Shown here: piece after piece, positions 40,389-48,738 of the stretch
How positions within the stretch are numbered: the stretch's first letter is position 1
How the letters are laid out: every line of letters starts with the position of its first letter
The notes under the pieces: model-generated
Databases searched by the model: none
What the model was told of the DNA's origin: nothing
Seen by the model: only the letters and a program-made list of their open reading frames with translations
IMG/VR virus record: IMGVR_UViG_3300006749_000011
Span: 21,818-85,817 of that record
Reading direction: 5' to 3' (one strand)
DNA length: 64,000 nucleotides
DNA from: a virus
Position numbers and translations under genes: made by a program

Positions 40389-42305
40389 ATGCCAAAATAT
40401 AAAAAGTCGCCTTACAATCCACAGTCGGATTTATTCAAGGCTTTAACAAAATTGTTGTCCGGCCCAATAACACAAAGAAGAACACAAACTGGTCGAATGC
40501 TGCGGAGAAGACAGCTAGATAACTATGCAACAAAATTTAAATCAGCATCTGGTGCACAGTTTAAAAAATGGGAATATAATCCCATAAACAACGTTACCCT
40601 TAACATGATATCAAATAGAAACAGAGCTGAGCGTTATGTTGATTTTGATGAAATGGAATACATGCCTGAGATAGCATCATCATTGGATATTTATGCTGAT
40701 GAGATGACAACTCATACTGCGCTTCGCCCAATGCTTAATATTAAATGTGCGAATGAAGAGATTAAACACATCCTCCATAACTTATATCATAATGTTTTGA
40801 ATATTGAACACAATCTTTTTGGTTGGGCAAGAACAATGTGTAAGTACGGTGATTTCTTTCTATATCTTGATATTGATGAAGATTTAGGAATTCGATCCGC
40901 TATTGGTTTACCGACAAGAGAGATTGAGCGTCTTGAGGGAGAGGACCAAAGTAATCCAAATTACGTTCAATACCAATGGAACACAGCAGGACTAACTCTG
41001 GAAAATTGGCAAGTTGCTCATTTCAGAATCCTTGGTAATGACAAACACTCTCCTTATGGAACATCTGTTCTCGAAGCTTGTAGGCGTATCCACCGTCAGC
41101 TTATACTATTAGAAGATGCCATGATGGCTTATCGTATTGTTCGTGCTCCTGAGCGTCGTTTGTTTAAGATTGACGTTGGTGGTATTCCACCGCAAGAAGT
41201 TGAACAGTACATGCAAAAAGTCATGACTCAGTTAAAACGACACTCTGTTGTTGACCCAACCACTGGTCGTGTTGATTTACGCTACAACCCCTTGTCAATC
41301 GAAGAAGACTATTATATACCAATTCGTGGAGGCCAATCAGCTACTGACATCTCAAGTTTACCAGGTGCTTCTTACAATGGTGGTATCGATGATGTTAAAT
41401 ACCTTAGAGATAAGTTGTTTGCTGCTCTCAAAATACCACAGTCTTACTTGACAATGGGTGAGGGCGCATCAGAAGATAAAACTACCCTTGCACAAAAGGA
41501 CATTCGCTTTGCAAGAACAATTCAAAGACTTCAACGTGTAGCAATAGCAGAACTCGAAAAGATTGGAATTATTCACCTTTACACGCTTGGTTATAGAAAC
41601 GATGATCTATTAACTTTCAAGCTACAGCTAAACAATCCGTCCAAAATTGCTGAATTACAAGAGCTCGAGCATTGGGACAAAAAGTTTCAAGTTGCTGCGA
41701 ACGCAACAGAAGGATACTTCTCAAAGCGCTGGATAGCAGAAAACATGTTTGGGCTATCTGAAGATGAATTTCTTAGAAACCAAAGAGAAATGTTTTTTGA
41801 CAAGAAGTACATGGCCAAACTTGAAGCGGCTGCTGCTGGTGGAGAAGGTGGAGAAGAACCTGGAGGAGGCGGTGGGCTTGCTGGTGGGCTTGGAGATCTT
41901 GGCGGAGCAGGTGGAGACTTAGAAGGTGACCTTGGTGGTGACCTTGGCGGTGGAGACACCGGTGGAGGTGATGTCGGCGGCGACGAAGGGGGTGACACTG
42001 ATCTGCTCGCCGAACCCTCTGCAAAACGTGATGAGCCACCACCAATTAGAGGAAACTATAAACGTCACCAGTCTTCTTATGACAAAGGCGGCATGAAAAA
42101 ATCAATGCTCGGAGCAACAGGTATAGAAGCTGCTCATTCAACTGGTCGTAACATATATAAAGGATACGTTGGGAACGAATATTCTCTCTCAAATGTATCC
42201 GGCGGCTATTTAGAAGAAGAACAAAAACTAGAAACAGTATCTCGAGAAGTTGAGATGCTTATCGAATCATTAAACACAAAGGAGAAACAAAATGAAGATA
42301 ACTAA
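40389..42305 (+). CDS. Portal protein (T4 gp20-like)
   Basis: PEIASSLDIYADE, LEDAMMAYRIVRAPERRLFKIDVG, EDYYIP.RGG, DVKYLRDKLFAALKIP; Gly/Asp-rich C-terminal tail. Confidence 0.97.
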   Translation: MPKYKKSPYNPQSDLFKALTKLLSGPITQRRTQTGRMLRRRQLDNYATKFKSASGAQFKKWEYNPINNVTLNMISNRNRAERYVDFDEMEYMPEIASSLDIYADEMTTHTALRPMLNIKCANEEIKHILHNLYHNVLNIEHNLFGWARTMCKYGDFFLYLDIDEDLGIRSAIGLPTREIERLEGEDQSNPNYVQYQWNTAGLTLENWQVAHFRILGNDKHSPYGTSVLEACRRIHRQLILLEDAMMAYRIVRAPERRLFKIDVGGIPPQEVEQYMQKVMTQLKRHSVVDPTTGRVDLRYNPLSIEEDYYIPIRGGQSATDISSLPGASYNGGIDDVKYLRDKLFAALKIPQSYLTMGEGASEDKTTLAQKDIRFARTIQRLQRVAIAELEKIGIIHLYTLGYRNDDLLTFKLQLNNPSKIAELQELEHWDKKFQVAANATEGYFSKRWIAENMFGLSEDEFLRNQREMFFDKKYMAKLEAAAAGGEGGEEPGGGGGLAGGLGDLGGAGGDLEGDLGGDLGGGDTGGGDVGGDEGGDTDLLAEPSAKRDEPPPIRGNYKRHQSSYDKGGMKKSMLGATGIEAAHSTGRNIYKGYVGNEYSLSNVSGGYLEEEQKLETVSREVEMLIESLNTKEKQNEDN

Positions 42306-44120: not shown

Positions 44121-45362
44121 ATGAAAATCAGAATAATAAAAAACAAAAAACAACTTAATGAAGAGTTTTATTTTGAACAAGGCTTTGACCAAGAACAGAG
44201 ACCTCCGGCAAACCCCTTATCGTTAAAATTGGTTAAGCTTATTATTAGCAAATTACCAGGTGCAAAAAAATTTAGTATGCGTACTCACAAAATGCGACCA
44301 CTACAAGCATCAGGAGCAGAAGGGGTTGTTGTCGGTATAGATGACAAAAGAGTAATAAAACTTTTTCATGATGTTAGCAACGCTGCAAAAAACCTGCACT
44401 TGGTTTCTCAAGATATTCCTGAAACCGCTCAAGTTTACTCTATGGGAAAAATTATTCTTAATGATCCTGTGGTTTATTATAAATTTGGGTCTTCTCATAA
44501 TGCGAGAACTCTCGCTAATCCAACAAAAGAATTATACTTTATAGTCATGCAGAGAGTTGTTCCGGATAGTTATATATATCGATATGTCGATGAAGTTTGG
44601 AAAAAACTAAATATGGTTTTCCAAACAACCTCAGATGCTTTTGTAAAGATGTTTTCCACAGGTGACCCTTTCATCAAACGAAGAATAAATAAAATTTATG
44701 AAAAAATAATGGCAGACCCAGAATTTTACAATGTTCCAGAGAAATTGCAGAATAATTATAAACAAGGAAAGGTTGACACTTTCGACATTCTTATAAAAAG
44801 TAAGAAAGATCTGGCAAGATTCAACACAGCTCTTGGGGTTTATAAAAAGAAAGAAAGAAAAGCAAGAAAACAAAAAGGTTTAAAAGGAGCAGAAGCTCAA
44901 TTATATTTGTTATATGATGTTAAAGGTTATCCAGTTAGTTTAAAAAATCTTATTCTGAATAAAATAGGAGCTAAAGAAGACATACCTTTTATCGATTCTA
45001 TTTGGTCTACACTCATGCAGTCTCCTGAGATGAAAAAAACAGCAAAGAAACAACACCCTTTAAACAAAAACAAAGGAGCCACTTTAGCAGATGATTTACA
45101 AGAAATTACAAATTTAATAAAGGCTATAAGAGTTGACAAAGGTTTAGCTTGGAACGATATTCACCAAGAACAGTTTGGTAGAAATGAAAGGGGAGACCTA
45201 ATAGGTCTAGACTTGGGAATCAAAGGAACAGCAAAAGAACTAGCAGCCGCTCCGGGTAAATTTGAAGCTGCAAACATTATAAGAGTTGCCACAAACTTTG
45301 ACCAACAAGGTCAACCCACAATGACTTTAGCAGAATCTAAAAAAAAAAGTATAAAACGCTAA
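44121..45362 (+). CDS. Protein-kinase-like fold enzyme
   Basis: Gly loop ASGAEGVV, VIK lysine, hinge FIVMQRV, catalytic loop WNDIHQEQ, DLG in the DFG position; large helical insert. Confidence 0.65.
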   Translation: MKIRIIKNKKQLNEEFYFEQGFDQEQRPPANPLSLKLVKLIISKLPGAKKFSMRTHKMRPLQASGAEGVVVGIDDKRVIKLFHDVSNAAKNLHLVSQDIPETAQVYSMGKIILNDPVVYYKFGSSHNARTLANPTKELYFIVMQRVVPDSYIYRYVDEVWKKLNMVFQTTSDAFVKMFSTGDPFIKRRINKIYEKIMADPEFYNVPEKLQNNYKQGKVDTFDILIKSKKDLARFNTALGVYKKKERKARKQKGLKGAEAQLYLLYDVKGYPVSLKNLILNKIGAKEDIPFIDSIWSTLMQSPEMKKTAKKQHPLNKNKGATLADDLQEITNLIKAIRVDKGLAWNDIHQEQFGRNERGDLIGLDLGIKGTAKELAAAPGKFEAANIIRVATNFDQQGQPTMTLAESKKKSIKR

Positions 45363-45859
45363 ACGTTTTTGATTTTGATAGAACCCTGTTTTGGACCATC
45401 GAGAAAGAAGAGGGATCAAAAAAATGGGAAAATATATATGGAAAACCATACCCTCACAAAGGGTGGTTCGGAAGAGCTGAGAGTCTAGATGTGAAGTTGA
45501 ACATTCCAATCAACAAGACAATGAAAAAAATTTATGATACTTTAAGGTCTGATCCTGATGGGCTTTGTGTTTTAAATTCAAATCGATATATCGGACTTGA
45601 AAAAACAATTAAAAGTTTTTTGACATATCATGGTTTCAAAATGGACGCGGTTTTGTTAAAGACTGGAAAAGACAACAAAGGACACAACTTGCAGGAATTT
45701 TGGAATGATTACCCAGAGGTTACTATTATAAACTGCTTTGATGATAAGGATGCGTCTCTAAATCACTACAAGAAATTAGAAGATAGGTATTCTATTTATA
45801 GAGAAGATTTGACTTTTAATATCTACAAAGTCACAAAAAACGGAATAACAAAAGTTTAA
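45341..45859 (+). CDS. HAD phosphatase (Swiss-Army-Knife RNA-repair HAD-like), in the -1 frame of the kinase ORF
   Basis: -1 frame reads KYKTLNVFDFDRTLF...GWF...LNSNR...K...CFDDK; bounded upstream by TAA at 45338..45340; no ATG/GTG/TTG before the DxD motif. Confidence 0.7.
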   Translation, partial: KKKYKTLNVFDFDRTLFWTIEKEEGSKKWENIYGKPYPHKGWFGRAESLDVKLNIPINKTMKKIYDTLRSDPDGLCVLNSNRYIGLEKTIKSFLTYHGFKMDAVLLKTGKDNKGHNLQEFWNDYPEVTIINCFDDKDASLNHYKKLEDRYSIYREDLTFNIYKVTKNGITKV

Positions 45860-46230: not shown

Positions 46231-46272
46231 CTCAAGCGGGTTGCGCCCGCATTATTTATTATGGAGAAAAAA

Positions 46273-46773: not shown

Positions 46774-47489
46774 AAATAACTAATGGACAATTGAGAAAAA
46801 TAATCAAAGAAGAGTTGTCTTATGTTTTAAGAGAAAACATGGGTTTAAAAATGTTTGTCCTTGTCGGTCCACCATCTGTTGGTAAATCAACTTGGATTAA
46901 CAGCACATTTGGTGAAAATAGACCCTATGTTATCAATCGTGATGATATAGTTGAAAATGTAGCTTCTGAGTATGGTTGGACTTATGACGATATGTTTGCA
47001 ACACCACCAGAGGACGCACAAATTGGCAGTGTAGATCAAAAATATGGAGAAGTTCAAGAATCACCAAACTGGATGACTTGGGCAAAATCTGTTTTTTCTA
47101 CTGTAATGGAAGCAAATGGTAAGGTCCACAGCTTATTTGCACAAAGAGTATCAGGTGCTGTGGGTAGTGGTCAAGATATTGTCGTCGATATGACAAATAT
47201 GAATGCAAGAGCAAGATCTGGTGCACTAAAAGCAATTGAAGGTGCTGAAGATCAATATGAAAAAATTGCAGTTGTGTTTGAATCTAAAGGTGCTGAGGAA
47301 TTTATCAAAGCTGTTGCTCAAAAAAGAGCCGAAGCAGCTGCGAGAATGGGTAAATCTAAAACAATTCCTCCCGCTGTATTTGACAGAATGTTTGCATCGT
47401 TTGAAGATGTAAGTATGGATGAAGGGTTTGACAAAATAGTAAGTGTAGACAATAGACAATTACTACAAAAACTAGCTAGTGAGATGTAA
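46770..47489 (+). CDS. P-loop kinase (AAA_33/polynucleotide-kinase-like) with KEEL-type leader
   Basis: VLVGPPSVGKST, INRDD, VVDMTN...R, IPPAVFDRMF...EGF; leader MKITNGQLRKIIKEELSYVLRE. Confidence 0.8.
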   Translation: MKITNGQLRKIIKEELSYVLRENMGLKMFVLVGPPSVGKSTWINSTFGENRPYVINRDDIVENVASEYGWTYDDMFATPPEDAQIGSVDQKYGEVQESPNWMTWAKSVFSTVMEANGKVHSLFAQRVSGAVGSGQDIVVDMTNMNARARSGALKAIEGAEDQYEKIAVVFESKGAEEFIKAVAQKRAEAAARMGKSKTIPPAVFDRMFASFEDVSMDEGFDKIVSVDNRQLLQKLASEM

Positions 47490-47493
47490 AACA

Positions 47494-48123
47494 ATGACCA
47501 AACAACTATTAACAGAATTTTTTGAATTATGTCCTGATGGAACTTGCATTGATCGTTTAAGTGAATCTCAAAAACGTGAAGTAATTAAAGAGGGAGCCGT
47601 TTATCTTGTTGGTCGCATTCAAACTGCTGATAAAAAGAATGGCAATGGGCGCGTTTATCCGATGAAAGTTCTTAAAAAAGAAGTAGACAATTATAAAAAA
47701 ATTGTTGCTGATGGAAGAGCCACAGGTGAATTAGATCATCCTGATGATTCTGTGATTAATTTAAAGAATGTTTCGCACATGATCACAGAATGTTGGTGGG
47801 AAGGTAAAGATGTTATGGGTAAAATCAAAGTTCTTGATACCCCTTCTGGTCGTATTCTTAAAGATCTAATTAATGCAGGTGTTAAACTTGGAATTTCTTC
47901 TCGTGGTCTTGGTTCTGTAAAAGAATCAATGGGCGATACTGTTGTTGAGGAAGACTTTCAATTAATTTGTTTTGATATTGTGGCTGAGCCTTCAACACCA
48001 AATGCTTACGTTTATCCAAAAAATAACCACTCAGGAATAAACAGAGGCGCAATGAAATTTAAAATTGCCGAGGGTAAAGAAAACAATATTGATCAACTAT
48101 TTAATAAGATCTTGAGGGACTAA
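47494..48123 (+). CDS. Prohead core protease (T4 gp21-like)
   Basis: KNGNGRVYP, GELDHP, VSHMIT, LDTPSGRI, GISSRGLGS, DIVAEPSTPNAY. Confidence 0.96.
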   Translation: MTKQLLTEFFELCPDGTCIDRLSESQKREVIKEGAVYLVGRIQTADKKNGNGRVYPMKVLKKEVDNYKKIVADGRATGELDHPDDSVINLKNVSHMITECWWEGKDVMGKIKVLDTPSGRILKDLINAGVKLGISSRGLGSVKESMGDTVVEEDFQLICFDIVAEPSTPNAYVYPKNNHSGINRGAMKFKIAEGKENNIDQLFNKILRD

Positions 48124-48542
48124 TGAATAAACAAGAACTAAAGAAAATTTTGAAACCATTAATAAAAGAGTGCATTAAAGAAGTTATATTCGAAGATGGC
48201 ACTCTTTCATCAATTATAAGCGAAGTTGTTAAAGGTGTTGGAGAACCTATTATTGAAACTAAACAAAGGTTCCCAAAAAAACAACAACCTCAATACGAAA
48301 CAAATGAACAAGCAAAAACAAGATTGAAAAAACAAAGAAATAAAATGATGGAAGCAATCGGTAAAGATGCTTACAACGGTGTTAATCTTTTTGAGGGAAC
48401 AACACCGGCACCCGCTCCGCAAGAAAATGGTCGAGGTGCTTTATCTGATGTTGACCCAAGCGACCCAGGAGTTGACATCTCTTCATTTATGGGCAAGTCT
48501 TCATTAATATGGGAAAAAATGGCAGGTAAAAATGGCAAATAA
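48123..48542 (+). CDS. Hypothetical head-module protein
   Basis: TAATG-coupled to protease; N-terminus MNKQELKKILKPLIKECIKEVIFE resembles the leader family. Confidence 0.7.
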   Translation: MNKQELKKILKPLIKECIKEVIFEDGTLSSIISEVVKGVGEPIIETKQRFPKKQQPQYETNEQAKTRLKKQRNKMMEAIGKDAYNGVNLFEGTTPAPAPQENGRGALSDVDPSDPGVDISSFMGKSSLIWEKMAGKNGK

Positions 48543-48738
48543 TTACACTTATAGAGTGAGAAAGAAAGACAATATAGACAGAGTTGTTAAGCGTTTTATC
48601 AAAAAATGTAAAAAACTTGGAATTATTGACGAAATAAAAGATCGTCAACATTATACAAAACCCTCTGAAAAGCGGAGAAGAGCAAAGGAAAGGGCAATTC
48701 GACGTAGGATAAAAGAAGAGAGAAAACGTAGAAAATAA
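48532..48738 (+). CDS. rpsU: Phage-encoded ribosomal protein bS21
   Basis: VRKKDNIDRVVKRFIKKCKKLGIIDEIKDRQHYTKPSEKRRRAKERAIRR matches the bS21 pattern. Confidence 0.9.
   Translation: MANNYTYRVRKKDNIDRVVKRFIKKCKKLGIIDEIKDRQHYTKPSEKRRRAKERAIRRRIKEERKRRK

What the first reader, a model, noticed from the sequence alone, without database searches (positions are those of the whole stretch)
45321..45400. Hidden -1 frameshift at an A10 run fuses a protein-kinase-like domain to a HAD phosphatase
Seen: the kinase ORF reads ...TTA GCA GAA TCT AAA AAA AAA AGT ATA AAA CGC TAA (10 A at 45339..45348). The -1 frame opens right after TAA at 45338..45340 and encodes KYKTLNVFDFDRTLF..., continuing in frame into the ORF annotated from 45491. 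The catalytic DxD therefore has no start codon of its own. The 0-frame linker contains TLAE, another LxE site. Known: A-AAA-AAA heptamers support -1 ribosomal shifting and runs of 9 or more A support transcriptional slippage. Inference: programmed kinase vs kinase-phosphatase fusion products, possibly split by the prohead protease; or phase variation; or a homopolymer assembly error.
Basis: partly seen in the sequence, partly recalled or inferred. Interest (0 to 1): 0.75.

Follow-up and report, generated by a model that had tools for sequence, protein, structure and literature searches.

The report
Poly-A slip site joins kinase to phosphatase
In this uncultured marine T4-like phage, a run of ten A's breaks a kinase-phosphatase fusion gene that relatives carry unbroken, so the start-less phosphatase half is probably still made by slippage at the run, a known trick found here in an undescribed head-module gene.

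Summary
A10 lies at 45339-45348. The kinase-like ORF stops 12 nt later, and the -1 frame opens at 45341. That frame encodes an intact HAD phosphatase whose DxDxT motif lies 40 codons before the first start codon.

Relatives at 38-66% identity are in-frame kinase-HAD fusions. A one-base slip at the run would give ...ESKKKKYKTLNVFDFD..., exactly the junction of natural fused relatives (P0008, P0038, P0040).

A10 is not an assembly error in this lineage. It is seen in the window, in an IMG/VR contig and in a Logan contig at depth 13.8. About eight further contigs of this lineage carry split gene calls, and no fused form is on record.

The same break recurs in at least five diverged lineages. One 404-aa split protein has a kinase part identical in amino acids to a 570-aa fused one. 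The HAD part stays 87-91% identical between split genomes, where the kinase parts are 69-81% identical.

A10 is the longest homopolymer in the 85.8-kb contig, and the genome otherwise avoids such runs.

Best reading (about 0.6): slippage at the run, more likely by RNA polymerase than by the ribosome, makes mostly kinase plus some kinase-HAD fusion. Relatives toggle the genomic state. Expression was not tested.

This scan has noted A10 slip sites in other phage genes on other DNA. It is a new member of a known kind.

The parts
44121..45362 (+). 0-frame ORF, 413 aa (P0002): protein-kinase-like enzyme ending ...TMTLAESKKKSIKR*
   Evidence: ORF list and translation. AlphaFold model has pLDDT 86 and pTM 0.84. 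All 50 best VIA hits are protein-kinase-like folds, Z 5.3-6.7. Invariant residues are the G-loop SGAEG.V, K80, D346...Q351 and D364-L-G. No Pfam or PHROG hit. Only 25 representatives among 1.84 billion proteins.
44121..44162 (+). N-terminal leader MKIRIIKNKKQLNE with a conserved L12-x-E14; candidate capsid-targeting tag ending in a protease site
Evidence: E14 is invariant, and L12, E15, F16 and Y17 are nearly invariant, in 22 homologues. In L002 the ORF that replaces the HAD starts with the same kind of leader. Packaging has not been tested.
45327..45335 (+). Linker motif L403-A404-E405 ([LIV]xE) just before the Lys run; candidate cleavage site of the T4-type prohead protease
   Evidence: [LIV]xE occupies this column in all 26 aligned sequences, although the linker is otherwise variable. 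A Peptidase_S77 gene lies at 47479-48123. T4 gp21 cuts after Glu following a short motif (PMC9026906). Cleavage is inferred.
45338..45340 (+). TAA that closes the -1 (HAD) frame upstream, so a productive shift must happen at or after the run
   Evidence: Sequence and frame arithmetic.
45339..45348 (+). A10 slippery run. It contains the 0-frame heptamer A_AAA_AAA (45341-45347).
   Evidence: The same A10 is found in IMG/VR contig L001 and in a Logan contig of run X1 at depth 13.8 with no gaps. An 88%-identical in-frame relative also has A10, followed by TATAT (loose end at 45348).
45352..45354 (+). TAA stop in the third frame (KKKV*). Transcripts with A9 or A12 would also end here and give kinase only.
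45360..45362 (+). 0-frame stop of the kinase ORF. The same stop is used by relatives, and by L002, which has lost the HAD.
45341..45859 (+). -1 frame, 172 codons (P0001): HAD phosphatase domain without a start codon of its own
   Evidence: PF10307 HAD_SAK_1 at E 4.8e-5, 23.7 bits against a cut-off of 25.6. 90.7% identical to the HAD part of the fused P0008. Foldseek hits of the fused model: Pnkp1 4xru_D at E 9e-4, Lem4 HAD and many other HADs.
45371..45385 (+). HAD motif I, DFDRT (DxDxT nucleophile), 40 codons upstream of the first possible start codon in this frame
   Evidence: D409, D411 and T413 (P0008 numbering) are invariant in 15 fused homologues.
45353..45369 (+). Small hairpin AAAACG-CUAAA-CGUUUU, 5 nt after the heptamer; not better than shuffled sequence and probably not a stimulator
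   Evidence: Fold of 45349-45400: -4.4 kcal/mol, z = 0.25. Longer stretches give z = -1.1 and -1.2.
47479..48123 (+). T4 gp21-type prohead protease gene (context, not part of the slip site)
   Evidence: Peptidase_S77 at E 1.4e-32. Portal_T4 lies at 40389-42305.

Best explanation
**What it is.** The kinase-like gene and the HAD phosphatase were ancestrally one gene, lying in the head module between the portal and prohead-protease genes. In a sub-clade the linker became Glu-Ser-Lys-Lys-Lys, encoded by a run of 9 to 11 A's. In the window's lineage the run is A10. Standard decoding therefore stops after SKKKSIKR and yields the kinase alone.

**How the HAD is made.** A minority of messages or ribosomes slip by one base on the run. 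Either RNA polymerase adds one A (or drops two), or the ribosome shifts -1 on A_AAA_AAA. Decoding then continues into the HAD frame and gives a 585-residue kinase-HAD fusion with the junction ESKKKKYKTLNVFDFD. Slips into the third frame stop two codons after the run. The outcome is two products: mostly kinase, some kinase-HAD.

I favour RNA polymerase slippage. The run has 10 A's, the flanks show no stimulatory RNA structure or SD-like element, and T4-type phages transcribe late genes with the host's multi-subunit polymerase.

**Evolution.** Over evolutionary time the same tract toggles between out-of-frame and in-frame states in close relatives. This changes which product is the default one.

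**Shown:** the anatomy, the ancestral fusion, that A10 is real in this lineage, the recurrence of the break, and the conservation of the HAD.

**Inferred:** that slippage occurs, its rate, and which machine slips. Also inferred: the kinase's leader carries the fusion into the prohead, and the protease then cuts at the conserved LAE to free the HAD.
For: 1. **The fusion is ancestral.** 15 homologues of 532-582 aa at 38-66% identity, and six loci with DNA, carry kinase and HAD in one frame. Their linkers hold no homopolymer of 7 or more A/T.
2. **The predicted junction exists in nature.** The slip product equals the junction of natural fused relatives P0008, P0038 and P0040, ESKKKKYKTLNVFDFDRTLFWTIEKEEGSKKWE.
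3. **The HAD cannot start on its own.** The first start lies 40 codons after DxDxT. Stand-alone HADs at 20-38% identity all have an ATG 5-10 codons before the motif.
4. **A10 is real here.**
   - It is seen in the window, in L001 and in an X1 Logan contig at depth 13.8 with no gaps.
   - The 413-aa form is on record from 5 contigs.
   - Separately called HAD fragments at 90% identity or more (cluster 1), excluding those that sit on contigs of other lineages, come from about 8 contigs.
   - No fused form of this lineage is on record.
5. **The same break recurs.** The tail SKKKSIK[RH]* is found in P0004, P0005, P0007, P0036 and P0037, at 65-71% kinase identity to the window. The tree needs 5 changes of state, and at least 3 are forced by well-supported branches.
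6. **The HAD stays conserved in split genomes.** It is 87-91% identical between split genomes against 69-81% for the kinases in the four pairs without evident module exchange. This matches fused-fused pairs. All four HAD motifs are intact.
7. **The genome avoids such runs elsewhere.**. Relatives with known DNA at this site keep A10, both split and in-frame.
8. **Both other frames stop within 2-5 codons**, as at known slippage sites.
9. **Precedents.**
   - The A11 run in C. rodentium tssM1 gives two length variants by transcriptional slippage, and both are needed (PMC4256274).
   - Bacterial RNA polymerase slips efficiently on runs of 9 A/T, and 12-50% of transcripts are corrected at endosymbiont poly(A) tracts (PMC5009743).
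10. **A synonymous clue.** The R/H difference in the 0-frame tail (CGC/CAC implied) is synonymous in the HAD frame. This is weak evidence.
Against: - **No direct evidence of expression.** No RNA run holds the stretch, and only contigs, not raw reads, could be laid.
- **No stimulator found.** No RNA structure above shuffled controls and no SD-like element.
- **The frame state is not conserved.** One split protein (P0037) has a kinase part identical in amino acids to a fused one (P0040). That is what a hypermutable tract or homopolymer miscalls would also give.
- **The HAD is dispensable in at least one lineage.** L002/P0009 has lost the HAD, broken the run, and kept the 0-frame stop.
- **Polymerase data are mixed.** E. 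coli polymerase slipped poorly on A runs up to 8 in one reporter study (PMC6260861). The host and its polymerase are unknown.
- **The selection test is soft.** HAD conservation was measured at protein level only, and module exchange at the junction blurs it. No dN/dS could be computed.
Confidence: 0.6

Rival explanations
1. DNA-level phase variation only. The tract changes length during replication (A10 <-> A11). A10 genomes are true OFF variants that make no useful HAD. The HAD stays intact because the population keeps flipping back to the in-frame state, where selection acts on it.
For: - Split and fused forms sit in the same 90% cluster.
- P0037 (404 aa) has a kinase part identical to P0040 (570 aa).
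- The tree needs 5 changes of state.
- No RNA-level evidence exists.
Against: - In the window's lineage only the split form is on record, in about 8 contigs from several sources, with no fused variant.
- Several split lineages are 65-71% identical to each other in the kinase part, so the state persists for long periods while the HAD stays 87-91% identical.
- One in-frame relative differs not in run length but in the bases after an unchanged A10. Not all flips are therefore simple length changes.
- A run of 10 A is expected to cause polymerase slippage in any case (PMC5009743), so a fully silent OFF state is unlikely.
Confidence: 0.2
2. Decay in progress. A frameshift mutation at a mutable run inactivated the HAD, which is dispensable and on its way to loss. 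Its intactness reflects only recency.
For: - L002/P0009 has lost the HAD altogether and kept the 0-frame stop.
- Kinase-only relatives exist at 35-48% identity (L006-L008, L013).
- P0010 (406 aa) is also short.
Against: - The break is shared by at least five diverged lineages, and 12 distinct HAD fragment sequences from split genomes are all full-length to the C-terminus.
- The HAD is the best-conserved part of the locus between split genomes.
- The 172-codon frame is open in a 35% GC genome. By my own estimate from base composition, a random frame there would meet a stop about every 13 codons. This was not run as a test.
- Motifs I-IV are intact.
Confidence: 0.12
3. Homopolymer sequencing or assembly error. 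The true genome has A11 and a plain fusion gene.
For: - Runs of 10-11 A are error-prone.
- The fused and split forms with identical kinase parts (P0040, P0037) come from short ENA contigs.
- The Logan contigs of run X4 break at the run.
Against: - A10 is seen in the window, in an independent IMG/VR contig and in a Logan contig at depth 13.8 that spans the run with no gaps.
- Split gene calls for this lineage come from JGI, ENA, Logan and MetaClust assemblies, with no fused call.
- L002 has fixed the 0-frame stop after losing the HAD, so a split ancestor truly existed.
- The X1 run may be the sample the window came from, so it may not be independent.
Confidence: 0.06

Closest known systems
Citrobacter rodentium tssM1 (and Yersinia pseudotuberculosis tssM): transcriptional frameshifting on an A11 run (PMC4256274)
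   Same: - A poly-A run lies just before a premature stop.
- The downstream domain is in another frame and has no start codon.
- Homologues elsewhere are single in-frame genes.
- No SD-like or structural stimulator is present.
- The result is a short and a full-length product.
   Different: - The tssM1 case is proven by mass spectrometry of transcripts and by genetics. Nothing here has been tested.
- This case is a phage head-module gene, with A10 rather than A11.
- Here the frame state toggles among near-identical relatives.
Thermus thermophilus dnaX tau/gamma by transcriptional slippage on a 9-nt A/T run; reversed dnaX arrangements in other bacteria (PMC5009743)
   Same: - A homopolymer lies at a domain boundary.
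- Stops lie close by in the alternative frames.
- There are two products with a shared N-terminal part.
- Relatives differ in which product is the standard-decoded one.
   Different: - In Thermus the long form is the in-frame one. In the window the short form is.
- The protein family and its biology are different.
Poly(A)-tract frameshifts rescued by polymerase infidelity in Buchnera and Blochmannia (cited in PMC5009743)
   Same: - Frameshifted genes in A+T-rich genomes stay conserved.
- The break sits in a long A run.
- 12-50% of transcripts are corrected.
   Different: Those cases are read as tolerated damage in genomes under weak selection. This is a phage genome that otherwise purges runs of 9 or more A, so the run looks retained rather than merely tolerated.
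Ribosomal -1 frameshifting in E. coli dnaX (A_AAA_AAG) and in phage tail-chaperone G/GT genes
   Same: - A slippery Lys heptamer (here A_AAA_AAA) is present.
- The fusion product shares the N-terminal part with the short product.
- The site lies in a phage late gene.
   Different: - No upstream SD-like element and no significant downstream structure.
- The run is longer than a heptamer needs.
Phage T4 capsid-targeting sequences and gp21 processing of internal proteins (IPI-III, Alt) (PMC9026906, PMC3012670)
   Same: - The locus lies between a T4-type portal gene and a Peptidase_S77 gene.
- A conserved N-terminal leader ends in LxE.
- A second conserved [LIV]xE lies at the domain linker.
   Different: - The leader sequence is unrelated to the T4 CTS.
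- As far as I know, a two-enzyme polyprotein cargo cut at an internal site is not described for T4.
- Packaging and cleavage have not been tested here.
T4 Pnkp and bacterial Pnkp1: kinase plus HAD-type phosphatase end-healing enzymes
   Same: - A kinase is fused to a DxDxT HAD phosphatase.
- The best structural hit of the HAD part is Pnkp1 (4xru_D).
- The neighbouring genes encode a 2H phosphodiesterase and an AAA_33 kinase.
   Different: - The kinase here has a protein-kinase-like fold, not a P-loop.
- The substrate is unknown.
- PF10307 scores just below its cut-off for the window's copy.

Membership tests
Recoding by slippage on a homopolymer (transcriptional slippage type: tssM1, Thermus dnaX, Shigella spa13) | Run of 9 or more A or T exactly at the frame junction | tested here: met
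   A10 at 45339-45348. The productive zone is bounded by TAA at 45338-45340 (-1 frame) and TAA at 45360-45362 (0 frame).
Recoding by slippage on a homopolymer (transcriptional slippage type: tssM1, Thermus dnaX, Shigella spa13) | The downstream frame encodes a conserved domain that cannot start on its own, and homologues carry the two parts in one frame | tested here: met
   The first start lies 40 codons after DxDxT. There are 15 in-frame fused homologues. The slip product matches the junction of P0008, P0038 and P0040.
Recoding by slippage on a homopolymer (transcriptional slippage type: tssM1, Thermus dnaX, Shigella spa13) | The slip site and the out-of-frame arrangement are conserved in relatives under selection | tested here: inconclusive
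   - The same break is found in at least 5 lineages and the HAD is conserved.
- A10 is present in the three kinds of DNA available at this site.
- The frame state toggles, L002 broke the run, and DNA of most relatives could not be fetched.
Recoding by slippage on a homopolymer (transcriptional slippage type: tssM1, Thermus dnaX, Shigella spa13) | Heterogeneous run length in mRNA, or a trans-frame protein, detected | not testable with these tools
   No RNA run holds the stretch, and only contigs could be laid.
Programmed -1 ribosomal frameshifting (E. coli dnaX type) | X_XXY_YYZ heptamer in the 0 frame | tested here: met
   A_AAA_AAA at 45341-45347.
Programmed -1 ribosomal frameshifting (E. coli dnaX type) | Stimulatory element: a downstream stem-loop or pseudoknot, and/or an upstream SD-like sequence | tested here: not met
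   Folds of the downstream 52-101 nt give z = 0.25 to -1.2 against shuffles. The only hairpin has 6 bp at -4.4 kcal/mol. No GGAG-like element is visible in the roughly 20 nt upstream.
Phase-variable (contingency) homopolymer tract | Different frame states in otherwise near-identical genomes | tested here: met
   P0037 (404 aa, split) and P0040 (570 aa, fused) have identical kinase sequences. P0036 (split) sits in the same 90% cluster as P0008 and P0038 (fused).
Phase-variable (contingency) homopolymer tract | Length heterogeneity within one population in raw reads | not testable with these tools
   The runs are kept as Logan contigs only.
HAD superfamily phosphatase (HAD_SAK_1, PF10307) | Motifs I-IV (DxDxT, S/T, K, DD) and a Rossmannoid HAD fold | tested here: met
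   - Motifs seen: VFDFDRT, LNSNR, KTGKDNKG, CFDD. They are invariant in 15 homologues.
- Foldseek hits to HAD structures and Pnkp1 at probability 1.00.
HAD superfamily phosphatase (HAD_SAK_1, PF10307) | Pfam gathering score reached | tested here: not met
   23.7 bits against a cut-off of 25.6 for the window's copy. Several fused homologues carry a precomputed PF10307 hit. I therefore call it HAD_SAK_1-like, not a curated member.
Protein-kinase-like (PKL) fold enzymes | Gly-rich loop, VAIK-type Lys, catalytic Asp loop, DFG-type Asp | tested here: met
   S64-G65-A66-E67-G68-x-V70, K80, D346-I-H-x-E-Q351 (Gln where Asn is usual) and D364-L-G366 are all invariant in 22 sequences.
Protein-kinase-like (PKL) fold enzymes | Bilobal kinase fold | tested here: inconclusive
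   All 50 best of 48,161 chains are kinases or APH/Rio (Z 5.3-6.7, 125-175 residues aligned). However, Z below 8 is in the range the tool calls middling. There is no Pfam or PDB sequence hit.
T4-type capsid cargo processed by the prohead protease | Leader ending in the protease motif, and a matching protease encoded nearby | tested here: met
   L12-x-E14 is conserved. The linker [LIV]xE is present in 26 of 26 sequences. Peptidase_S77 scores E 1.4e-32 at 47479-48123, and Portal_T4 lies at 40389-42305.
T4-type capsid cargo processed by the prohead protease | Presence in the virion and cleavage at the motif | not testable with these tools
   This needs virion proteomics or an in vitro protease assay.

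The most novel reading that the evidence does not exclude
The A-run is a dosage dial for capsid cargo. The HAD phosphatase has no targeting leader of its own. It reaches the prohead only as a passenger on the leader-tagged kinase, and the prohead protease then frees it at the conserved LAE|S site. That cut also trims the short product's tail, so both products yield the same mature kinase.

Slippage on A10 would set how many HAD molecules are loaded per kinase. Heritable toggling between out-of-frame and in-frame states would let related phage populations switch between low and high HAD loading, a form of bet-hedging against host RNA- or nucleotide-based defences.
Probability: 0.25. Interest if true: 0.65.

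Novelty: new member of a known kind. Interest (0 to 1): 0.45.

Why it matters
- **Annotation.** Gene callers split this locus into a 413-aa hypothetical protein and a 112-122-aa fragment that lacks its catalytic aspartates. The real unit is a kinase-phosphatase protein.
- **A new case of recoding.** It adds a case of homopolymer-based recoding in the head module of marine T4-like phages. It is one of the few cases where natural relatives show both frame states. This gives a natural experiment on how product ratios evolve.
- **A link to capsid cargo.** If the cargo reading holds, recoding would control the stoichiometry of enzymes delivered with the DNA.
- **An undescribed enzyme family.** The kinase-like family has only 25 representatives among 1.84 billion proteins. 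It sits beside RNA end-healing enzymes.

Tried and rejected
DNA of the key relatives (P0004, P0005, P0007, P0008, P0036-P0040) could therefore not be fetched. Their run lengths and dN/dS remain unknown.
It returned only distant HADs and a few fused relatives.
- **Other collection scans.**
  - Genome contigs: nothing.
  - IMG/VR holds only one contig of the window's lineage plus L002 in the close clade.
  - GenBank phages: no blastn match, and only four tblastn hits below 32% identity, in huge phages.
- **Sequencing runs.** No RNA holder is listed. Run X3 laid no contig. The X4 contigs of the window's strain end at or near the run and do not bridge it. Only contigs were available, so minor length variants cannot be seen.
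- **Downstream RNA stimulator:** not above shuffled sequence.
- **Terminator scan:** nothing at the junction.
- **Independent HAD start:** rejected. There is no ATG, GTG or TTG before DxDxT, and the nearest start (GTG at 45491) would give a protein without motif I.
- **Annotation libraries.**
  - PHROGs: no hit for either part.
  - Profile search of PDB sequences: nothing relevant.
  - Foldseek on the two-domain model gave only weak APH hits for the kinase part, so the kinase was folded and searched alone.
- **Literature:** the paper that defined the 'Swiss Army Knife' HAD family was not found in the held library.
- **Rate comparison** of HAD against kinase in split and fused pairs is confounded by module exchange at the junction.
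Full report
**1.

- The window reads ...TTA GCA GAA TCT AAA AAA AAA AGT ATA AAA CGC TAA, with exactly ten A's at 45339-45348.
- The 413-codon ORF 44121-45362 ends SKKKSIKR*.
- The -1 frame is closed by TAA at 45338-45340. It is then open for 172 codons (45341-45859): KKKYKTLNVFDFDRTLFW... It passes in frame through the GTG at 45491, where an ORF finder would start.
- The third frame stops two codons after the run (KKKV*).
- No ATG, GTG or TTG precedes the DxDxT motif at 45371-45385. The first start is codon 50 of the open frame, and the motif is at codon 10.

**2. The run is exceptional for this genome**

- It is the only run of 9 or more A/T in the window, where dinucleotide shuffles give 15.6 matches to the 9-A search pattern.
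- A-run counts in the window are 193, 113, 41, 5, 0 and 1 for lengths 5 to 10.
- In the whole 85,817-nt contig the chance of extending a run falls from about 0.42 to about 0.2 beyond six A's. The only other long runs are two A9. One is in frame at the start of a gene, the other is intergenic.
- Of nine KKK tripeptides in + strand ORFs of 100 aa or more, eight contain an AAG. Only this one is AAA AAA AAA, although AAA is 76% of Lys codons.
- E. coli shows the same avoidance, with a single AAA_AAA_AAA in its coding sequence (PMC5009743).

**3. What the two halves are**

The downstream half is a HAD phosphatase.
- It matches PF10307 HAD_SAK_1 at E 4.8e-5, just under the gathering score.
- Motifs I-IV are present and are invariant in the family.
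- In a confident model of a fused homologue (pLDDT 83) this part hits Pnkp1 of the Pnkp1/Rnl/Hen1 repair complex and many other HADs.

The upstream half has no Pfam, PHROG or PDB sequence match.
- Its model (pLDDT 86, pTM 0.84) finds only protein-kinase-like folds among the 50 best of 48,161 chains: ULK4, MAPKs, APH(2''), Rio1, at Z 5.3-6.7.
- The Gly loop, the VIK lysine, D346...Q351 and D364-L-G are invariant.
- The family is tiny: 25 representatives among 1.84 billion proteins.

The locus lies between a T4-type portal gene (40389-42305) and a Peptidase_S77 prohead protease gene (47479-48123). A 2H phosphodiesterase gene and an AAA_33 kinase gene lie next to it.

**4. Relatives settle the main question**

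- A search with the kinase returned two length classes: 403-413 aa and 532-582 aa.
- The long class is an in-frame kinase-HAD fusion.
- Six loci with DNA confirm one open frame of 536-577 codons, with no A/T run of 7 or more at the linker. The fusion is therefore ancestral, and the A-run is a later feature of a sub-clade whose linker reads ESKKK.
- The closest fused proteins read ...TMTLAESKKKKYKTLNVFDFDRTLFWTIEKEEGSKKWE... (P0008, P0038, P0040). One extra A in the message, or a -1 ribosomal shift on A_AAA_AAA, would produce exactly this from the window.
- HADs with their own ATG exist only at 20-38% identity.

**5. A10 is real in this lineage**

- An independent IMG/VR contig (L001, 99% identical) has the same A10.
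- A Logan contig of run X1 at depth 13.8 spans 45241-45800 with one substitution and no gap. X1 may be the source sample, so it may not be independent.
- In the protein collection the 413-aa form occurs on five contigs. The separately called 112/122-aa HAD fragments of this lineage occur on about eight contigs, from JGI, ENA, Logan and MetaClust.
- No fused form of this lineage is on record.

**6. The break recurs, and the state toggles**

- P0004, P0005, P0007, P0036 and P0037 are 65-71% identical to the window's kinase. All end ESKKKSIK(R/H)*.
- HAD fragments lie on the same contigs as P0005, P0036 and P0037, judged by matching contig lengths.
- On a tree of the kinase parts the split state needs five changes, at least three of them forced by well-supported branches.
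- P0037 (split) is identical in its kinase part to P0040 (fused), and its HAD fragment P0034 is identical to the same part of P0008.
- An 88%-identical relative in run X4 reads A10 followed by TATATAAAACGTTAAATG... This is in frame (SKKKIYKTLNVFDF, the P0023 type). The run itself is therefore kept in an in-frame genome, and the difference lies in the bases after it.
- In L002 (P0009 type) the run is broken (AAAAAAGGTTTAAAAAAA). The kinase ends at the homologous TAA, and the HAD has been replaced by another leader-bearing ORF. This shows two things: a split ancestor really existed, and the kinase alone is a viable product.

**7. The HAD is maintained in split genomes**

- Between split genomes the last 112 HAD residues are 87-91% identical. 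The kinases are 69-81% identical in the four pairs without evident module exchange.
- Fused-fused pairs show the same pattern.
- Twelve distinct fragment sequences from split genomes all run to the normal C-terminus.
- Some pairs show the reverse pattern: kinase 94-95% identical, HAD 87.5%. This points to exchange of modules at the junction and limits the test.
- The R/H variation in the 0-frame tail would be synonymous in the HAD frame. This is weak evidence.

**8. Mechanism**

Both non-fusion frames stop within 2-5 codons of the run. Any slip other than +1 or -2 bases therefore still gives kinase alone.

I found no stimulatory RNA structure (z = 0.25 to -1.2) and no SD-like element. This argues against a dnaX-type ribosomal signal.

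Evidence from the literature on polymerase slippage:
- Runs of 9 or more A/T cause efficient slippage by bacterial RNA polymerase.
- Poly(A) tracts in endosymbionts are corrected in 12-50% of transcripts (PMC5009743).
- The A11 run of C. rodentium tssM1 yields transcripts with 10-15 A's and two required protein forms (PMC4256274).
- One reporter study found weak slippage by E. coli polymerase on A runs up to 8 (PMC6260861). The rate at A10 in the unknown host is therefore open.
- Ribosome sliding on iterated AAA codons (PMC4363877, listed) could add to the effect.

T4-type phages use the host polymerase for late genes. That is established for T4 and inferred here. I therefore favour transcriptional slippage, with a possible ribosomal share.

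**9. A functional rationale (inferred)**

- The kinase starts with a conserved leader, MKIRIIKNKKQLNE, in which L12-x-E14 is conserved.
- The linker keeps [LIV]xE in all 26 aligned sequences, although the rest of the linker varies.
- T4 gp21 cuts after Glu following a short motif and removes capsid-targeting leaders (PMC9026906).
- The HAD has no leader of its own.
- A simple model follows. The HAD rides into the prohead on the kinase and is released at LAE|S. The cut would also trim the short product's tail. The slip rate would set the ratio of HAD to kinase.
I checked only the conservation of the motifs.

**10. Verdict**

- Assembly error is unlikely for this lineage.
- Phase-variation-like toggling among relatives is real at the level of gene calls.
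- Whether A10 genomes make the fusion, and by which machine, remains to be shown.
- The mechanism is of a known kind, and this scan has noted A10 slip sites in other phage genes on other DNA. The gene pair, its place in the head module and the natural coexistence of both frame states are new details.

Noticed in passing
L002 4257-5480 (IMGVR_UViG_3300007960_000119): In this relative the HAD is gone. A 407-aa ORF of unknown function follows the kinase, and it starts with the same kind of leader (VKIKIIKKSNLNE). The 104-aa membrane-like ORF and the AAA_33 kinase gene follow as in the window, but the 2H gene is missing.
   Followed up: partly
proteins P0036/P0046 against P0008 and P0023 (no window coordinates): Signs of module exchange at the junction. 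The contig encoding P0036 has a kinase 94.7% identical to P0008, but its HAD is only 87.5% identical to P0008's and clusters with P0023's HAD. The linker with the A-run may also be a recombination joint.
   Followed up: partly
window 44121-44162, and homologues P0012-P0022: The same kinase-HAD family carries two different N-terminal leaders: MKI(R/K)I(I/V)K...QLNE in the close clade and MKLLMENWRSYLNE...L(D/N)EEFYF in the distant clade. Both contain LxE motifs.
   Followed up: no
window 45156-45173 (D346...Q351 of P0002): The catalytic loop of the kinase-like protein reads D-I-H-x-E-Q, with an invariant Gln where protein kinases have Asn. A helical insert of about 190 aa separates the hinge from the catalytic loop.
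   Followed up: partly
contig C1:1140-1148 and C1:4012-4020 (upstream of the window): These are the only other runs of 9 A in the contig. One is in frame at the very start of a gene (ATG GCA AAA AAA AAT, MAKKN...). The other lies in an AT-rich intergenic stretch just upstream of a TTGACA.
   Followed up: partly
window 46236-46250: A GC-rich hairpin, GCGGGTTGCGCCCGC, followed by ATTATTTATT is the only terminator-like site on the + strand near the locus. It lies between the 104-aa ORF and the 2H gene.
   Followed up: no
window 48532-48738: A 68-aa ORF rich in Arg and Lys (MANNYTYRVRKKDNIDRVVKRFIKKCKK...) lies just after the protease region. I did not test this.
   Followed up: no
protein P0010 (406 aa, on a 20,281-nt contig): Another short form of the kinase ends ...TMTLAEDKNKMR*, without a K-run.
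   Followed up: no
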